Notes under the pieces: generated by a model
Seen by the model: only the letters and a program-made list of their open reading frames with translations
The model's database searches: none
Told to the model about the DNA's origin: nothing
Shown: piece after piece, positions 4,631 to 53,292 of the stretch
How the letters are laid out: the number at the start of each line of letters is the position of its first letter
How positions within the stretch are numbered: position 1 is the first letter of the stretch
Made by a program: the position numbers and the translations under genes
Source: Octopus sinensis
Lineage: Eukaryota
Assembly (NCBI RefSeq): GCF_006345805.1
Contig: NC_043009.1
Span: 11,656,001-11,720,000, forward strand
Direction: 5' to 3'
Length of the DNA stretch: 64,000 nt

Positions 4631-7571
4631 TACAGACTCAAATATAATATCACAACTTATCAACTTATATATAAATAAAGGCGAAAAGTAAAATCCGGAA
4701 TTGGCGGGTTTAGAATATAAAATGCAAGGGACACAATGTATTTTGACTGGTGGTCCATGGTACTCCACTACCTTTTCCTGTCTTAGAGCAAATATTTTGT
4801 TGGTTTCAATGGGTTACTGAAAACACTGGAAGGAATTTGGAATTAGAGTTGTCTTTAGCAGAGTTAGGTCTCCAGTCTGAAGATAACTTTCGGGTCCCCA
4901 CCCCCAATCACCAGCTTCAGAGGCTAGAAGAATGTCATGAGTGCTTCTATAACTCAATAATGTTACAGAAAGTAAAATATGCGACGTTGGAAGCTGGACG
5001 GTAAAAGAGTTTGTCGGAAATTTCCTTCTGTTACTTACTTAAGCACATAAGTTAAACAAAAATGGCTTCAAACGAAAATCGAAAATTGCCATGTGCTTAA
5101 ATCTTCACCTAATAATAATCTGCAGAGGATTAACGGCTTTTCAATGTATTAGACATTTCTCGATAATAGGAAAACGAGGAAGAAATGTTATTGAATCGAT
5201 TGATTTCATTCTTGGGAATAAAGAACGAATTTTCTTTCCTTTTTTTACTTTTTTTAGTTAAGAGTTGCACAGACTGACATACAATTCACTGCTCTAAATA
5301 ATACGAACGAGTGGCATAGCTATTACGTCTGGTATAGGATTCAGCAATCCGATAAAATGGAAAAGTTTGTTCACTAGATTTCGAAGAAATTAAGATAGCA
5401 TGGCTGGGTGTAGCTAAAAGAAAAGGTTCCCCAGTTAGAAGTTATTTGTGTACCGGTCCTTATTAGTGGAAGAGCTTTCATTTATGTTACTAAAGACTTT
5501 GAAAATGACACAAACCTACATTCCTTCTCAGTTATTGAGTAGAATTATCTCAATGCCTCTTAAACCCTAGGTAAATTAATGAACTGGCGCTTAACTTCAA
5601 TTTTCTGGCACCAAGAGCATAAGAGATAAATTTTCCGCTTGGATACCAGGCCACCAGCTCATGTAGCATTTCCGGATGATCTGTTATCCATTACCAACAG
5701 TTTAAACGACCTGTGATGATACAATACTAAGTATACTGCCCTAACACATGATAAAACGCCTGCAGTCAAGGCACTCGAGCGTCAATATATTCAATTCAGC
5801 CATTTTACCCGAAGAAACGAGGCTGTTTTCATCAAACTATACTGTTAGCATCATCACGACTGTTACGTAATTTCAGATGTTCTTCGCTTGAATGCCTATA
5901 ATCAATGGTCTGTTCGACGATCAGAAACTAAGCAACAGCAAAATCTTAAATAAGCACATTTTAACTAAGCCTGGTTAGCGGAAATCTTATTTACTGAATG
6001 CTTCCATGTAAAGATCGTGTAACACGACGTGTTATACAATTTTAATGAGATCTTAAACTCATAACATAAGACCACCGCATCTTTAGTGAGCCGAGTCGAT
6101 TTAGATGCCCAGCCTGCCACGAATAAGCTGTACAGCAACGAATGTGATGAAATACAATCCCATGATATATACGCTGCGTGCTAAGATCACAGGACTTACG
6201 TTAAATATTATTATAACCTTGCAATGGGAGCAGATATAGCCAAAGGGTTATGAATTTCGCTTTGCAAGTATTATGTCGCAGGTTTGTGATCTCTCTAGGC
6301 AGAAAATCATATTAAGCAAATGTCTTTTGCTATTAACTCGGATTGATCCATAACTTGTGAGTAAAACTTAATCAAGGGAAACTGTGGGGAAACCCTTCGG
6401 ATAAACAGTTTTGTTATACAATGTCATGCTAATGTTGCATTAATGTCGACTCTATGCTATTCCGTCTACCGCCAAATTGGTGCCAAAAATACTGATCAGC
6501 ACTCATTTGGACCACGTCAGTAAGGCTGAGAAAGGGGTTCTGGCGATTAGAAAAACTCAGGATCTCCATACGTGCAATCCAGGCTTGATCTGTGGCTGTC
6601 ATTAGTGGAGTCCATTTTGTTGCAAACCTTTGGACCAGAGTTTGGAATTGAAGGTGGCCTCCTGTTTCCCACCAACCACAAGGGCCATGAGTAGCACGCT
6701 TTCTCCTGACTAAGCAATCAAAAAATAATTCTTTAATAAATAGCTGAACTTTGCTCTAAGTAATTATTGCATCGGCAAGAATGTATAGCTGAGTTGGAAA
6801 TTTTGGCTTGCTTTCGACAAGAATTTATACTAGAGTCGTATTATTTTGTTTGATGTGAGGAATATAAAATCTAATGTTGCATGCATACTAATTTATAATA
6901 TCACCTTTTCTATCTTTCTTTCTTATCTTCAGACATGGGGTAGGGTTTGAAACGACGGATACACCTCACCGACAAATGAACATATCGAAGTTACCGATTA
7001 ACTAAACATATTTTGCTACCCAGTTAAGCGTAATATGTGGAGAAACAAAAGCAATCGAAAGGTGTCTTAACACGTATAAGGATTCGTTTAAATGCTTCTG
7101 ATAATACAAAATAAAACAGTAAACATCGAGGCATATAGAGACGGTTTCCGTTGACAAATAGTAATGCAAAAAAAAGTTCACACAGTTACAGGATAAACAG
7201 ACAGGACTCCTAATCAATATTTTTTTTATTAATATGGCATATGAAATGATGAAAAGGAAAGAAAATAGAAAGCAGCAAGTATACTGAGAAATATATTACA
7301 GCGAATCATGCAAATATTTCGTAATCTCGGCAGACAAAATGGCGACTTGCGTTGCGTCGAAGAATAATGAGAGAAATATGCTGAAAGAATCGTTCCACAT
7401 CGCAGAACTCGTTCTTGTGGATAGCAAGAATGATCAGGATAGGGATAGGTGGTGGTGGTGGTGGTGGTGGTGGTGGTGGTGGTGATGAGTGGAGGACAGA
7501 TCGCCAGTTTGTTGTAGGTTCGAAAAAGAAAAAAAACTATCAGAAAGCACCCAGCAGATACTTTCAGCTCC

Positions 7572-7602
7572 CTCTGACGAAGGGTTCTAACTGAAACGTT
7601 AG
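7572..7602 (+). ncRNA. Minimal type-I hammerhead ribozyme motif (degenerate stems)
   Basis: ct-CTGACGA-agggttctaact-GAAAC-GTT-ag; AATAAA at 7623-7628. Confidence 0.55.
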
Positions 7603-7819
7603 TTTTATCTTCTTTCCCATTGAATAAAATTTATTTCCTGGTGTGATTAACTATACTTCATCTCATCGACTCAACTAAAAACAGTCTACAGTGTGATTAA
7701 AAATATATTCCATAACCTCAACTAAATTTGTTTTTTGAACTTATAGACACATGTTGGACATCAATTTCCCGAATAAATAACGTTTTACAAAGTAACTAAG
7801 CTTATTCTACGATGGGCCA

Positions 7820-8025
7820 ACGGGGGAGCCTCTACACGATAGATCGACATGCTAATAACAGCAGCCAAATATCCCTCGAATTACACCCTACAGGAACAGC
7901 TTAGAAATAAATACATCAGATAGGGTAGTCTTTCAGATTACTAAAATACTAGACGGTCACAACTGGAACGCACTTGATCATAGATCTACTGGATCGATCT
8001 TGACCTGGGGCTAAACAATAAGAAC
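7820..8025 (+). mobile_element. Old interspersed repeat family D (SINE- or LINE-3'-like)
   Basis: gagcctctac...gctagaaatagcagcc...gatcatagatct...gacctggggctaaacaa; diverged copies near 3250-3400, 9655-9770, 11225-11445, 39280-39500 (+) and 36225-36330, 41785-41965, 48010-48210, 57125-57260 (-). Confidence 0.65.
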
Positions 8026-19945: not shown

Positions 19946-20850
19946 AGCTTGCCACGGGTCACTGAAGATAGTGGTTCCTGGAAGAACCGAGTGTCGTATG
20001 CAGGCCTTGTTTACTCCTTGTGCGCATGCGCAGCATCTTCGATTACTATGGAAACAGAGTTCTTCGCAATTAGCTATGGATCACCTCGTGCTTCTTTGCT
20101 TACTATGCTAACAGAACTTCACAGTGATGTGTAAAATACTCGCTTTTGATTGGATAAAATACCAAATTTTTGCAAATTTTAAAGGCTAATAACCTTTTAA
20201 TTATGAACTCATTGGGAAAATGACTTTCATTTTCATAATTAGCATACAAAGTTTAATCCATATACCAAATTTGAAAACAATTTGGGCAAAATTGTAGGCA
20301 GTGATGATAACACAAAGTGTTCGGCAAAAGAGACCGATAGAATAAGTACTGGCCGCAGTCAACTGACTGAAACAAGTAAAAGAGTAAAAGAGTATATGTA
20401 TCCACGCACACATACGCATGCGCGTAATACATGTTGGTGTATGCTTATACAACTTAATTGTCACAGATGAGAGAAAGAAAACGAAAAAATAGTTTATTGT
20501 AGGCAGTGATGATAACCCGTTTCCCATATTCATTATAAACTCAACGATCACTGCGGAATTCCTGAGGTAGATCCAGTGACACATATATCGAAACTGTAGA
20601 TGACTTCAGGTAGCCTGAACAGTGGAAGTGCTTTTATTGGCCTTCTACTAACCGTAAACTTCTACTAACCCAAACTCTAATTATATATATATAAGTTCAA
20701 ATAAAGGTTACAAACTTTACAATTAATATTCACCTGTAAGGTATAACTATATATGCCGTGGTTTATATATATTTATTTACTACAATAACATAAGAAAATA
20801 GAGAGATAATTAATGAATTATCATTTATTAATTAAAGAATTGACAAACAT

Positions 20851-21099: not shown

Positions 21100-21778
21100 T
21101 CTCGCGAACTCATTTCAACCTTTTTGGATAGACTAGTGACTGGTGACGATAAATAGATCTTCTATTGAAATGTAAACGTCGTAAACAGTAGCTTGGTAAA
21201 AGGGGAAAAGCTCAACCACAACCGAGAAGCCAACTTCACGGAAAAAGGTTCTCTCTATCTGGTGGGATTGCAAAGGAGTAATTCACTTTGAATTGTTACC
21301 ACTTAATGCAACAATCAATGCTCAAGTCTACTGTCAGCAATTAGATGGTTTGAACCAAGCTTTGAAGAAAAAATACCCGCTTTAGTGAATCGAAAAGGAG
21401 TTATGTTTCATTAGGGCAATGCGCGACCCCACACTGCAAAGATCACAGAAGACCGAAGAGCTTGATTGGGAAAAATTCCCCATCCACCTTATTATCCCGA
21501 CCTTGCTCCTTCAGACTACCATTTGTTTTGGAGTATACAGAATCATTTGGGGAACATAACTTTCGCAAACCAGGAGGTCGAAACTGACATTTCAGAGTTC
21601 TTCGTTTTGAAACCAAAAGAGTTTTACATTTATGGGATTAAAAAGCTTGTAAATAGATGGAAGGAAGTCATAGATAATCAGGGAAAGTACATTGATGATT
21701 AAATTCCAATTAAATATAACATTTGATCACTTGTTTTCTTTATTCAAAAGTCGGACAGAACTTATGGGATAACCTGAG

Positions 21779-21779
<1 letters not shown>
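21100..21779 (+). mobile_element. Mariner (DD34D) transposon 3' remnant with right TIR
   Basis: Frameshifted LVTGDDK, IWWDCKGVIHFELL, NARPHTAK and HPPYYPDLAPSDYHLF motifs; TIR-like cggacagaacttatgggataacctg followed by (TA)n. Confidence 0.92.
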
Positions 21780-21831
<52 letters not shown>

Positions 21832-21930
21832 CAGAGTAAGCACATAAATGCAAAACAAGGTGGAAAAAACAGTACTCGAATACCGGAGGTAGAGTAATGT
21901 GCTTTATTAAAAAGCAGCAAAGATATCAAA

Positions 21931-21977
21931 AAAACTGTTACTCAGAGTTTCACGTTCCCGTTCGTCGGACTGTTTTG
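21931..21977 (-). ncRNA. Type-I hammerhead ribozyme, U4C core variant
   Basis: Minus strand: aaaacagt-CCGACGA-acg ggaa cgt-GAAACTCtGAGTA-acagtttt; stem I 7/8 bp; AATAAA at 21903-21908; element runs to (TA)n near 21830. Confidence 0.7.
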
Positions 21978-22763
21978 TTTAGAATGGAACAAAATATGGT
22001 TATACGCATAAATATACAATTGCTTTGATAGATACTCTTTGGAAAATGGTTTTGTTTCATTGGTCCTTTCAACTAATGGTCTTTTCAATTACCAGTTGTA
22101 TGAAATTACAATTAAGGTTTAAAATCATATTATTATAAAAATCGAAGGAAACCTGAAATCAAAAATAGTTTATGTAGACGGAAAAAGACCTGAATGCCCA
22201 GGGTAAAGAATTAGTGGTAAAAAATAATAATAATTTTAAATAAATTAAAGGTTATACCCATTTAAAAAAAACTTTCACAAAGAACATTCTAAAGTACATA
22301 TACATTTTGCAATATATAAACATACCAAACAACCTATAGATACGTATATACGCTAAACATACAGGCGTTGGTACAGGGCTACGTACATATACAGAGAGAT
22401 GTAGGCAAAACATAAATATATACAAATGCATATATATGTATCCACGCACACATACGCATGCGCATAATACATCTTAGTGTATGCTTATACAACTTAGTTG
22501 TCACAGATGAGAGAAAGAAAACGAAAAATATAGAGAATAAGAAGTGGTGGGAGAAAGAAAAAAGAAAAAGAAGAAAAAAGAAATAAAAGAAGAAGAAACA
22601 GAAAATTAGAAAGTGAAAGAGAAAAATAGAGGTTCCTAAAAAGTATCTAACGAATATTAGAAACTTCGTTCAGCTTGCACAAACACACATATAAAAACGC
22701 ACACATACAAAGCGACATGCATAAATACCAGCATACTAGAAATACACACACTCACATGCACAA

Positions 22764-22794
<31 letters not shown>

Positions 22795-22866
22795 GATATA
22801 CATATATGTATGCATGTATATACAACGCAAAATTTCGTTGCGTGAGCGCAACTTTCTCATTGATTT

Positions 22867-23082
22867 AGGAGTGGCTGTGTGGTAAGTAGCTTGCTTACCA
22901 ACCACATGGTTCCGGGTTCAGTCCCACTGCGTGGCATCTTGAGCAAGTGTCTTCTACTAAAGCCTAGGGCCGGCCAAAGCCTTGTGAGTGGATTTGGTAG
23001 ATGGAAACTGAAAGAAGCCCGTCGTATATATGTATGTGTGTGTTTGTGTGTCTGTATTTGTCCCCCCAACATCGCTTGCAAT
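22867..23082 (+). mobile_element. Family-B SINE (3' truncated)
   Basis: aggagtggctgtgtggtaag...ggttcagtccc...gaagcccgtcg followed by (TA)(TG)n. Confidence 0.9.
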
Positions 23083-29311: not shown

Positions 29312-29354
<43 letters not shown>

Positions 29355-29516
29355 GTGTGTGTGGTTGTGTATAGAAGAATATATTAATAAAAAGAATTCC
29401 AGCCTTGTCTGATTTTCACGTTTTATTTACAATCTTATAATGATATATTATAAGATAATATATTATAATTGAATAAAATAAAATGAAATAGTAGAATGTT
29501 AAATATTCATTCTGAT

Positions 29517-29561
29517 TGAACTAGTACTTTCATGCATTGAATTCTGCAATCTTCGGGTTCA
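29517..29561 (-). ncRNA. Type-I hammerhead ribozyme in the PLE 3' terminus, U4C core variant
   Basis: Minus strand: tgaac-CCGAAGA-t tgca gaattcaa tgca t-GAAA-GTAC-TA-gttca; 5-bp stem I; palindromic helix III AGTACT; CUA triplet. Confidence 0.75.
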
Positions 29562-30011
29562 TGTAGTAGTGTTGACAGTCATGCTTCACAATTTTTGACT
29601 GTAGCAAGATGATTGATTCTGTGCTATAAATACAGCTGGGTAGGCTCCAGAGTGCTAGGTTTTGCAAACTGTATTCTGACCAATCAGTGTGTAGTACCAC
29701 TCAATTACTTAAGCTGATTGGTTGGTTGAGCTGATTGGTTTAGGCATCACGCTTTGTTGGACATGTCAAGAGTCCTGTATCTTGACCCTGGCCGAAGCAG
29801 CAATTGTTGGGTTATTTTTTAAAATGTTGTAAATATCCTTTGTCAGAGATTTTTATATTTTTATATTTCAATTGTCATCATCATCATTGTCAGCACCTTA
29901 ATTATTGTTGCTAGTGGTGATGGTGGTGGCAATAGAACTTTTAACCCTAAATAAGATAATTTTCCTGCTATCTTCATCTTGATCACCTTTAGTATTGTTG
30001 TTGTATTATTA

Positions 30012-33000
30012 TTATTGCTTATTTAGCTTGGGTTCGAATTTATCAATAAAATTCTTTTCTCTGATTTTCCTCTCGATTTCACTTGGGCTGTGTAATTTGT
30101 AGAATGGAAATATTATATATATTTTCCGACCACATGTTGCTAGGTGGTTACTCAAAGGTATCTGACGGACCTCTGGGTCTCTAATCTGTTGCCGGTGTAC
30201 ACGTGAGCGTTCAAATAGTGCGTTTCCCGTCTGACCTACATATATTTCTTCACAATTTGGGCATTTGATGCAGTAAATTAAATTCTGCTTTTGCAGTTCA
30301 TATTCGCGTTTGTGAATATTTTCCCGGTTTTTGTGTTTATATATTGACCGGTATGTATGAATTGGCATGTGCCACATCGGCTATCATTGCATTTAGATAC
30401 CGTGAATGTTTGTCTTTGTTGCTGAGGTCAAATTTTGCCTTTGTTAGTAATGTTTTCAAGTTTTTAGGCTGTCTTTTACTAAGCACCATAGCTCGATCCG
30501 TGATTATGTCTTTTAATTCATTACTTTGGGCAATGATTGGTAGGTTTGCTTTGGCAATGTTGAAGATATTCTGGTGACATGGGTTGTGTGTCACTATGAA
30601 TGGTATGACTTGTTCTTGTTTTCCTCTTCCTTGGGTTGTCCTAAGTTGTTGTATGGGTATTTTTATAGCCCGCTGTATGCCATTTTCTATAAGTAGAGAT
30701 GGGTATTTTTGTTTGAGCAAAAATTCTCTTAGTTCTATTAGGCGTTTGTTCCTGATATTTGCATCTTCTACAATAGTACAAATTCTTCTGGCTAGGCAGT
30801 ATGGGATGTTACGTTTTGTATGTGGTGGATGGCACGACTTAAAATTTAGGTATTGATGTGTGTCTGTGTGTTTATAGTATATATCTGTGGTGATGGTGGT
30901 GTCTTTTTTAATTACCATTATATCCAGGAATGGTATTCGGTACTACTCATCTCCTTTGTAAATTGGAGAGATGGGTGTAGGTTGTTCAGGAGGATATTGA
31001 ACTCTTCCAGAGTATTTAGAGATTCTGTCCAGATTATGAAACAGTCGTCTAGGTATCTCTTCCATGCCTTTTCAATATATTTTCTAAATCCAGTGCCATA
31101 GTTTACCTCCACCTCTTGGTAGAGTTGTTGTTCCAAGTATCCCATTACAGAGTTGGCGTAAACGGGAGCAAACCTCGTTCCCATCGCCGTGCCTCTAATT
31201 TGGATGTAATTCTTTCCATTGAAGAAGAATGTGTTATTTTCTAGAATAAGTTTGACTGTGTCTAATATAAATGGCACTGTGAATCTGCTGGGAATCACTT
31301 CTCTATGTTTTTCTAACCAGTATTTAATCGCCTTTATTCCTAAATCGTGTGGAATATTGGTGTTGTAGAGGCTTACCACATCAAAACTTAGTAAAACTGA
31401 ATTTGTTTCTGTTGTTTTGGGAAGATGGGACAGGAAGTCGATGTAATCCCTGATGAAACTTGGTATGTAAGTACATAGTGGTTTCAAAACAATGTCAATA
31501 AAATTGCTTAGACGGTGTGTAGGGCATGCTGGACCAGCTATAATAGGTCTAAGTTTTAGGTCTTTTGGATGTAATAATTTTATGTACTCACTTTCTTGTT
31601 CTTTTACTGCCTGTTGAATGTTTTTGATTTGTGTATTTTTGGTAAGCCGTAGAAGTTGCTGGGTTTTGGTTCAAAATTGGTGATGTAGTTTTTTCATTAT
31701 CCGTAAGTGAGTTGTGGGTGTGTGAAATCAGGTTGTTGATCTTTTTCATGATGTGGTGGTCTATATTTGCGGGTATTTCACAATAGAAGGTTGTATCCTT
31801 CAGTTGGTCTTCAACCAAATCCTTATAGTATTCGGTATCCATAATAACAATTGCACCACCTTTATCTGCTGTTTAATTATTATTGTTTGATCGTTTTGTA
31901 TACGTTTACATGCAGACATCTCTGATTTGCTAATGTTTGGCCTAACATTGGTATTGCGTCTAAGGGGAAATTTAGACAGGATATCAATGTATTGGTCAAG
32001 GTAGTTATTTCTTCCTTTTGGTGGGGTGAAATTTCATTATTCCTTACTAGGGATTCATCAATCTCATTACTTTTGTTAGCGAAGAATTCTACAAGTCGTA
32101 ATTTTCGACAGAATTTTTGGATATCCTCCTTTAATTCTTGGTGGTTGGCTGTTGGTGTAGGTGTGAATTTCAGTCCTTTTGACAGAAGTTGGATTTCATC
32201 ATTGTCAAGATTTCTTTTTGATAAATTAATTATTTTAGGATCTATACGTTCAGTTGTTTTGGGTATGTTTCCTCTTGGATTTTTTCTTTCTCCGGTGTTT
32301 GTTGTCCTGACGTAAAAAAATGGATTTTTTTCTGTTTATGATTTATATTCCTGTTGATGTTTGCTTGATGAATTTTGCGTTTTGGTTGTGGTACTTTACT
32401 TGGTTTCGTTATGTTTTCAGTTTTGTTTTTGGTATTATGTATGCGACTTTTCAATTTCTTGTTAGCATTGTTTTTAACCACCTGGAGAAATGATCTGGGT
32501 TTACTTCTAGATCCATATCGGTTTTTTGTCCAGTTTCTTGTGGGTAATCTCTGTTGAGGTCTTGAAAATGATCTCTTGTTATTTCTACTGCTAATGGTCT
32601 GTTCAAAACAATATCTATTTTGTTTGTGCTTTTTGTTCATGTTGTGTGCATTAGGGTGTTTGCATACAAAAAGGGAAGAGTTCTTACCGTAGTTCGTCTT
32701 CGATTCGTGGTGAAACGGGTGTTCATGTTGCCACGTGTTCTGGTGTATGTTGCGTTGGTGAGGTTGTCCACTTTTAATGCTATTTCTCGGAGTTCTGGTG
32801 TCTTTACCGTAATTTGTAGCATATTTGTCGAGAAATAATTGTTTCCGCTGCCAAAACTTTCTTGATCTGCTTTCTTCTTTTGAGATATCTCTGATCCATA
32901 GTTCTCGCATTTTTTCTGCTATATTGCCGGTCGTTAGTTTGGATATTTCATCTCTGATTTGATCATCGATAGCTTCGTATTTGGCTTTGTAGCGAGATTG

Positions 33001-33042
33001 TTTAGACAGGGTAATGGAGATGTCGGTCCTGAATTTTATCAA
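30012..33042 (-). pseudogene. PLE polyprotein (N-terminal region, RT, GIY-YIG endonuclease) split by several frameshifts
   Basis: ORF pieces 32242-33042, 31588-31842, 30918-31487, 30337-30918, 30012-30377; NLIYCIKCPNCEEIYVGQTG...ER...H...H...E.....PKLN. Confidence 0.9.
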
Positions 33043-33081
33043 ACTAAGGTCCCATCGAAGTTTAGTTTCTATATATTACCG

Positions 33082-45754: not shown

Positions 45755-45789
45755 GTTTAACGTTTCGAGCGGAGCTCTTCGTCAGAAAC
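45755..45789 (-). ncRNA. Minimal type-I hammerhead ribozyme with canonical core, in an approx. 200-bp element (45660-45860)
   Basis: Minus strand: gttt-CTGACGA-a gagc tcc gctc-GAAAC-GTT-aaac. Confidence 0.8.
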
Positions 45790-52993: not shown

Positions 52994-53292
52994 AGTATAT
53001 GAAAGAATGGAGTTGAACGACTAGTTAACAATATCCTTTATTCTCGACAATATGTTTCGAAGGCTGCTTATTCCTAATTCCGAAGGAATAAGGAGTACAT
53101 TATGCAGATTTCTCATCAGGAAATCAAGGAACTTATGTCGACATCAAAATACACAAAAACTTTTAGCTGATGAGAAATCTGCATAATGTACTCCTTATTC
53201 CTTCGGAATTAGGAATAGGCGCCTTCGAAACATATGTCGAGAAAAAGGATATTTGTTAACTAGTCGTTCAACTCCATTCTTCATATACTTAT
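52990..53292. mobile_element. Inverted pair of hammerhead-bearing PLE-type termini (palindrome)
   Basis: Arms 52990-53119 and 53167-53292, 47-bp spacer. Confidence 0.85.
53042..53123 (-). ncRNA. Type-I hammerhead ribozyme with long stem II (plus-strand copy at 53167-53242)
   Basis: Minus strand: tttc-CTGATGA-gaa...ttattcct/aggaataa hairpin...ttc-GAAAC-ATATT-GTC-gaga, overlapping AATAAA. Confidence 0.8.

What the first reader, a model, noticed from the sequence alone, without database searches (positions are those of the whole stretch)
21931..21977. Second, independent U4C hammerhead (CCGACGA) with well-formed stems
Seen: stem I 7/8 bp, stem II acg/cgt with GGAA loop, helix III ACUC-u-GAGU, GUA triplet, then AATAAA and a terminus at (TA)n. 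There is no flanking similarity to the 29517 ribozyme. Inference: the same core substitution in two unrelated families suggests a tolerated or selected attenuated variant that strict CUGANGA searches would miss.
Basis: partly seen in the sequence, partly recalled or inferred. Interest (0 to 1): 0.7.

Follow-up and report, generated by a model that had tools for sequence, protein, structure and literature searches.

The report
Variant-core hammerhead in Penelope retrotransposon tail
This is the decayed tail end of a Penelope-like jumping gene whose small hammerhead-ribozyme motif has C instead of the usual U at one core position across its family and in a second, unrelated, recently active family, so the change does not stop these elements from spreading and likely leaves a slower, untested self-cutting RNA.

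Summary
The motif is real (minus strand, 21977 to 21931). It is a minimal type I hammerhead near the 3' end of a 1.0-kb, 5'-truncated copy of an old Penelope-like retrotransposon (PLE) with Hydra-clade features. C4 is the family state: 62 of 78 paralogues. U4 copies equal the opposite-strand decay class (15 TG, 15 CA), as CpG deamination predicts. The 29517 ribozyme belongs to an unrelated, very young Neptune-like PLE (96 of the first 100 of 307 copies CCGAAGA; open RT-endonuclease ORF in L061). So C4 is compatible with transposition. U4 families are just as abundant, and the finding's own lineage has a young U4 sister subfamily, likely a reversion. That fits 'tolerated'; nothing here shows 'selected'. 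This copy has a private stem I break and no partner nearby, so it likely does not cleave. U4C is in print for a viroid. Four paper searches found no report for PLEs, but Lunse 2017 could not be read. This scan already noted U4C PLE hammerheads on other DNA, including this genome. Verdict: new variant of a known kind; activity untested.

The parts
21931..21977 (-). Minimal type I hammerhead motif, family 1 (the finding)
21962..21968 (-). Core C3-C4-G5-A6-C7-G8-A9; the variant C4 is at 21967
   Evidence: C4 in 62 of 78 paralogues
21969..21976 (-). Stem I 5' arm, with a private T-to-A change at 21971 that breaks the third pair from the core
   Evidence: 73 of 78 paralogues have T there; folding
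21952..21961 (-). Stem II: A.N closing position, 2 bp CG/CG and a GNRA (GGAA) tetraloop
   Evidence: sister subfamilies have GCAA and A.G or A.A
21940..21948 (-). Self-complementary helix III (3 bp beyond A15.1-U16.1 with a 1-nt loop); predicted to pair between two copies
   Evidence: duplex -7.9 kcal/mol, intramolecular pairing probability about 0.1
21938..21939 (-). Predicted cleavage site, 3' of A17 (GUA triplet)
   Evidence: sequence plus hammerhead numbering; untested
21931..21938 (-). Stem I 3' arm
21903..21908 (-). AATAAA; many paralogues end just after it at (TA)n
21830..21901 (-). About 72-nt optional 3' extension (PLE 'tail'-like), present in 40 of 94 lineage copies examined
21830..22824 (-). 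5'-truncated copy of the family-1 PLE, 3' UTR only. In longer copies the RT-thumb and endonuclease remnant lies upstream on the same strand, ending about 1.4 kb before the ribozyme
   Evidence: L124, L125, L126
21779..21822 (.). (TA)n microsatellite at the insertion site
29333..33070 (-). Family-2 PLE copy (young, Neptune-like RT + GIY-YIG), the comparison element
29517..29561 (-). Family-2 hammerhead, core CCGAAGA (C3 at 29556), palindromic helix III
45755..45789 (-). Third hammerhead in the window (family 3), canonical U4 core

Best explanation
The motif is the hammerhead ribozyme motif at the 3' end of a Penelope-like retrotransposon with Hydra-clade features, C4 is the inherited state of its family, and the variant likely cuts slowly, as a dimer, at a cost small enough that such elements kept spreading. 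Shown: element identity, family-wide C4, symmetric CpG decay, recent amplification of C4 elements in an unrelated family, and coexisting U4 sister subfamilies. Inferred mechanism: in tandem (pLTR-ORF-pLTR) transcripts two copies would pair through the palindromic helix III and cut after GUA, possibly helped by the element's own protein, to trim the element RNA from a longer transcript. U4C would lower the rate, but cleavage is probably not limiting for transposition, so position 4 drifts U to C and back by CpG deamination in the source elements. The copy at 21931 is a solitary stub with a broken stem I and likely does not cleave.
For: C4 in 62 of 78 copies; the C4-G5 dinucleotide is CG 44, TG 15, CA 15, like neighbouring CpGs. 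In the first 100 of 651 pattern hits, U4 goes with other changes: 16 of 20 against 23 of 80 (hand count; Fisher p 5e-5). Family 2: 96 of first 100 of 307 CCGAAGA, 40 of 40 scored hits 100% identical, C4 in both terminal repeats of L061 and L062, open 636-aa RT/GIY-YIG ORF in L061. With the core left free, other core positions deviate only in scattered copies, at most 5 of 100 rows each, while position 4 splits 55 U, 42 C, 3 other (hand count). The U4 subfamily nests among C4 copies on a tree of downstream sequence. Helix III, cleavage site and stem I match Hydra-2_aMil in Craig et al. File S2. A viroid U4C variant has much lower in vitro activity yet stays infectious (PMC3088659). In a lizard PLE, ribozyme-dead mutants still insert in vitro and cleavage needs protein (PMC11167929).
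Against: No cleavage data exist here for any C4 PLE motif. Pairwise mutagenesis of a type III hammerhead found low activity for all CUGA-region mutants except the C3-G8 swap (PMC9901934), so C4 may be near-dead rather than slow. Core constancy inside the lineage is weak evidence by itself: downstream sequences differ by only about 14-16% between subfamilies, so ten unchanged sites could be chance. The tree is midpoint-rooted on about 108 columns, 40 of 94 copies, with one C4 copy (L252) inside the U4 clade.
Confidence: 0.6

Rival explanations
1. Catalytically dead or vestigial: C4 motifs no longer cut, and the fold is kept as a protein-binding or 3'-end signal, or simply hitchhikes.
For: CUGA-region mutants had low activity. 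PLE ribozyme mutants did not affect insertion in vitro, and no RNA ends were seen at the site (PMC11167929). Naiad PLEs thrive without canonical hammerheads. Unchecked note e1-10356353 reports other variant cores in thousands of copies.
Against: Catalytic G8 and G12 and the other core letters stay canonical in amplified subfamilies and in family 2 (G12 fixed by the pattern). The viroid precedent keeps activity. The lineage went on to yield a fully canonical U4 core.
Confidence: 0.2
2. Selected attenuation: slower cutting keeps more full-length template or tunes timing, so C4 is favoured and arises again and again.
For: C4 occurs in at least three families with unrelated stems and in several more motif types. 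It arises against the CpG mutation bias and persisted through successive subfamilies. All 26 published Hydra rows are U4, so C4 is derived.
Against: Large U4 families coexist (89 of 100 rows, 10,411 matches, 220 in control). A very abundant young subfamily of this lineage is U4. Other CpGs (C7, and one in the tail) also switched between subfamilies, so C4's persistence is not exceptional. Family 3 amplified both states (32 U4, 68 C4 of 100).
Confidence: 0.13
3. Compensated variant: in this compact architecture (2-bp stem II with GNRA loop, changed position 11.1 or 7) C4 is fully active.
For: Position 4 is linked with position 11.1 in the lineage: U4 with A, C4 with G or U.
Against: The link is explained by subfamily descent, one event. 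C4 also occurs with quite different stems and with N7 = A, C or U.
Confidence: 0.06
4. Private decay or chance match in this one copy.
For: This copy does not fold as a hammerhead on its own; Rfam has no hit.
Against: 651 family matches against 0 control; C4 majority.
Confidence: 0.01

Closest known systems
Hammerheads of Hydra-clade PLEs, especially Hydra-2_aMil, Hydra-1/2_aJap (Craig et al. 2021, PMC8557442, File S2)
   Same: Near the 3' end of a C-terminal-endonuclease PLE; (TA)n target; helix III actc-N-gagt with a 1-nt loop; cleavage after GUA; stem I ctgt/acag as in Hydra-2_aMil.
   Different: All 26 listed Hydra rows (25 families) have U4, found with a U4-requiring descriptor. Here C4, a 2-bp stem II with GNRA loop, and a longer 3' UTR (about 1.4 kb from ORF remnant to ribozyme).
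Minimal type I hammerheads of metazoan PLEs (Cervera and de la Pena 2014, PMC4209133)
   Same: In PLE terminal repeats, palindromic helix III, thousands of dispersed truncated copies, proposed dimer action with low activity.
   Different: The core variant named in the text I read is U3-A8, not U4C. The G10.1-C11.1 pair and long stem II are missing here.
Viroid hammerhead with U4C (Ambros and Flores 1998, seen only as cited in Perreault et al. 2011, PMC3088659)
   Same: Same core substitution; lower in vitro activity, still enough for infectivity.
   Different: A rare variant of a viroid ribozyme, against a fixed state of retrotransposon families with hundreds to thousands of copies.

Membership tests
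Hammerhead ribozyme (type I) | Three helices around the core, with stem I open-ended | tested here: met
   (intact paralogue L007 folds stem I 8 bp and stem II); no compensatory changes were assessed
Hammerhead ribozyme (type I) | Core C3 U4 G5 A6 N7 G8 A9, G12 A13 A14, A15.1-U16.1, H17 | tested here: not met
   All met except U4, which is C. U4C is a recorded active natural variant, so this is filed as a variant, not a canonical member.
Hammerhead ribozyme (type I) | Site-specific self-cleavage | not testable with these tools
   needs a cleavage assay
Hammerhead ribozyme (type I) | Match to an Rfam hammerhead model | tested here: not met
   no hammerhead among 98 matches at E up to 5, including for the U4 motif at 45785, so the test is insensitive to these minimal forms
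PLE minimal/dimeric hammerhead | Short palindromic helix III that can form only between two copies | tested here: met
   8-bp duplex with a central U.U, -7.9 kcal/mol; prediction only
PLE minimal/dimeric hammerhead | Located in the terminal repeat of an RT/GIY-YIG element | tested here: met
   family 1: ORF remnant and ribozyme on one strand in L124; family 2: in both direct repeats. A two-repeat full-length copy of family 1 was not found.
Hydra clade of PLEs | C-terminal GIY-YIG-type endonuclease without CCHH, with CxCX5C linker and flanking CxxC/CxH | tested here: met
   read by eye in stop-free stretches of natural copies against section 11 of PMC8557442; Pfam gave no significant hit for three fragments
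Hydra clade of PLEs | DKG motif changed to DKT | tested here: met
   found in 1 locus (L149) of the 40 searched, the others being truncated or decayed there
Hydra clade of PLEs | N-terminal RWK motif | tested here: inconclusive
   not found in 40 loci; none was shown to reach the N-terminus
Hydra clade of PLEs | Insertion into (TA)n | tested here: met
Hydra clade of PLEs | Placement in the Hydra clade on an RT tree | not tested
   only by-eye likeness to the Hydra rows of the published alignment
Naiad clade of PLEs | N-terminal endonuclease | tested here: not met
   the endonuclease follows the RT

The most novel reading that the evidence does not exclude
Position 4 of the PLE hammerhead is a tunable switch: unrelated PLE clades repeatedly gain C4 to slow self-cleavage and lose it again by CpG deamination, so a large hidden class of CCGANGA ribozymes (thousands of copies in this genome alone) sets how much uncut template reaches reverse transcription. 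The natural C4/U4 sister subfamilies give ready-made pairs to test what PLE hammerheads are for.
Probability: 0.15. Interest if true: 0.7.

Novelty: new variant of a known kind. Interest (0 to 1): 0.42.

Why it matters
What PLE hammerheads do is still open. A core change regarded as damaging is fixed in a family that has just amplified, and it flips between sister subfamilies. That argues that fast cleavage is not needed, and it supplies natural near-identical C4/U4 pairs for kinetic and transposition assays. In practice, CUGANGA-only searches undercount these ribozymes: about 40% of listed matches in the Hydra-type helix III class here are C4 (40 of 100). The locus itself is an inert stub.

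Tried and rejected
Rfam scan: no hammerhead. Naiad hypothesis (would have explained 'Naiads lack hammerheads'): rejected, the endonuclease is C-terminal. tblastn with the family-2 RT found no family-1 ORF, only stray fragments; the ORF was found by walking upstream. Pfam on three family-1 fragments: nothing significant. First distance estimate was inflated by flanks and dropped. Stem I and III pair indices were wrong and were redone. Expression: no RNA holder listed; contigs laid cannot show ends, strand or orthology, so they are not used as evidence. Lunse et al. 2017 and Ambros and Flores 1998 are not held and were not read; the first could already list U4C in PLEs. Only part 2 of 59 of the Craig supplement was read whole, plus search hits; the supplements of Cervera 2014 were not opened and may bear on novelty. 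C-to-U or A-to-I editing as a rescue was considered and set aside: no data, and A-to-I cannot turn C4 into U on the sense strand. Search of earlier findings by sequence returned nothing.

Full report
OBSERVATION. The minus strand of 21931-21977 holds a compact type I hammerhead shape with core CCGACGA, stem II ACG/CGT with a GGAA loop, GAAA, helix III CTC-T-GAG, a GUA site and a 7-of-8 stem I. A scanner over the whole window gave three hits: 21968 (score 13, C4), 29556 (score 11, C4) and 45785 (score 9, U4). Of 200 block shuffles, 1 reached 13, 2 reached 11 and 16 reached 8. Rfam gave no hammerhead hit. The flanks of the two C4 motifs are unrelated (best E 0.40).

THE ELEMENT. The stretch is a high-copy repeat (3,792 candidates, 40 scored). 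Paralogues share the 3' end at (TA)n and thin out 5'-ward. The window copy spans about 22824 to 21830. Walking upstream through longer copies reached a decayed ORF with an RT followed by a C-terminal endonuclease. In L124 the RT-thumb and endonuclease remnant (7047-7874) lies on the same strand as the ribozyme (9297). By eye the protein has the Hydra-clade marks of Craig et al. 2021 (PMC8557442; I read passages, sections 6 and 11, supplement search hits and supplement part 2 of 59): DKT (seen in 1 of 40 loci), a CxCX5C linker, no CCHH. RWK was not found and no RT tree was built. Inverted head-to-head pairs and an optional 3' extension (40 of 94 copies) are common, as described for PLEs.

IS C4 THE FAMILY STATE? 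Yes. Among 78 de-duplicated copies from DNA searches (window copy and the 32 pattern-selected copies left out), position 4 is C 62, T 15, A 1. The C4-G5 dinucleotide is CG 44, TG 15, CA 15, other 4. The neighbouring CpGs decay alike: 14/17, 21/10 and 9/15 TG/CA. These copies were picked by likeness to the window copy, which can favour C slightly. A pattern that allows either letter found 651 matches, control 0. In the first 100, 80 are C4 and 20 T4, and T4 goes with other changes (16 of 20 against 23 of 80; hand count; p 5e-5). The window's stem I mismatch at 21971 is private (73 of 78 have T). An intact paralogue folds stem I with probability 0.76-0.98, against 0.04 or less here.

THE SECOND FAMILY. 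The 29517 motif lies in a different PLE (window 33070-29333). It has direct terminal repeats about 4.27 kb apart, a 390-aa upstream ORF and a 636-aa RT (Pfam RVT_1 27.7 bits, just under the cut-off) plus GIY-YIG ORF in L061. It has DKG and a CX4CxxC linker by eye, hence 'Neptune-like' (clade label partly recalled, not tested on a tree). All 40 scored hits were 100% identical over 201 nt. With the core left free, 96 of the first 100 of 307 matches read CCGAAGA, 3 CTGAAGA and 1 TCGAAGA. C4 is in both repeats of L061 and L062. An element with C4 therefore transposed very recently.

GENOME CONTEXT. Both states are common. A third family has 9,920 matches, with 68 C4 and 32 U4 in the first 100 but only 4 changes at the neighbouring CpG, so both states were amplified (p 2e-7). 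Its link to a PLE ORF was not established. The Hydra-type helix III class (loop not T) has 7,687 matches, control 9, with 40 of 100 C4. The minimal class with C7 excluded has 10,411 matches, control 220, with 89 of 100 U4. In the finding's own lineage, with 11 core places freed, there are 6,712 matches. Position 4 is U 55, C 42, other 3; every other conserved core position deviates in at most 5 of 100 scattered rows (hand count). On a tree of about 108 columns downstream of the cleavage site (40 of 94 copies, those with the 3' extension), the window's group is the most diverged (median 13.8% within, mixing two subgroups). The 7 U4 copies of the young subfamily sit in one clade (support 0.84, with one C4 copy inside) among C4 copies. 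With published Hydra elements all U4 (26 of 26 rows; ascertained with a U4 descriptor), the simplest history is U4 to C4 in an ancestor and C4 back to U4 in a recent source element. That order is inferred from a midpoint root.

MECHANISM. A 1-nt loop cannot close helix III in one molecule, but two copies form an 8-bp duplex (-7.9 kcal/mol). This is the dimer mode proposed by Cervera and de la Pena 2014, who saw low in vitro activity (PMC4209133, parts 1-2 of 4 read). Perreault 2011 (passages) state that a viroid U4C variant has considerably lower activity in vitro yet supports infectivity. Roberts 2023 (passages) found low activity for CUGA-region mutants. Frangieh 2024 (passages) found a PLE hammerhead that cuts only with protein and is not needed for insertion in vitro. 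I commit to a slowed, dimer-dependent, near-dispensable ribozyme whose position 4 drifts (0.6). Rivals: vestigial (0.2), selected attenuation (0.13), fully compensated (0.06). None of the rates is measured.

NOVELTY. PLE hammerheads and Hydra elements are known, and U4C is known from a viroid. Searches for 'hammerhead'+'U4C' (1 paper), '+CCGANGA' (0), '+CCGAUGA' (1 paper on opsin gene silencing, listing only) and a PLE-variant search (1 review, listing only) gave no report of family-wide U4C in PLEs. Lunse 2017 was not readable. I also saw part 1 of 5 of bioRxiv 10.64898/2026.07.22.740005 and passages of PMC6765202 and PMC6962438; none mentioned U4C in what I saw. Six earlier unchecked notes of this scan describe variant-core PLE hammerheads, two in this genome; my reading was written before seeing them. 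Added here: the symmetric CpG test, a just-amplified C4 family with an open ORF, and C4/U4 sister subfamilies. That the host looks like an octopus is my impression from recalled repeats and is not established by any search.

VERDICT. Observation confirmed; interpretation partly supported (tolerated yes, selected not shown). New variant of a known kind, interest 0.42.

Noticed in passing
window 45755-45789 (-): A third hammerhead with canonical U4, from a family of about 9,900 pattern matches in which C4 and U4 versions were both amplified (68:32 in the first 100).
   Followed up: partly
window 21200-21779 (+): Decayed Tc1/mariner-type transposase remnant ending at the same (TA)n tract; recognised by a recalled motif in the frames, not by a database hit.
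   Followed up: partly
window 22860-23070 (+): Abundant SINE-like repeat right behind the 5' end of the element (covered by about 30 loci).
   Followed up: no
L084:2559, L029:2807, L114:767; G000:C1:12149321 and 38871209: Further hammerhead types with unrelated stems and C4 cores; families and clades not worked out.
   Followed up: no
G000:C2:68658287-68666851 and C4:61608956-61617978: Tandem arrays and inverted pairs of the very young family-2 PLE at about 4.27-kb spacing.
   Followed up: no
window 20393-20492: 101 nt, 95% identical to part of the family-1 element at about 22433-22533; a small local duplication or shared insert.
   Followed up: no
window 53069-53217: Near-perfect long inverted repeat (hit as MIR7696 below threshold); possibly a MITE or fold-back.
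   Followed up: no
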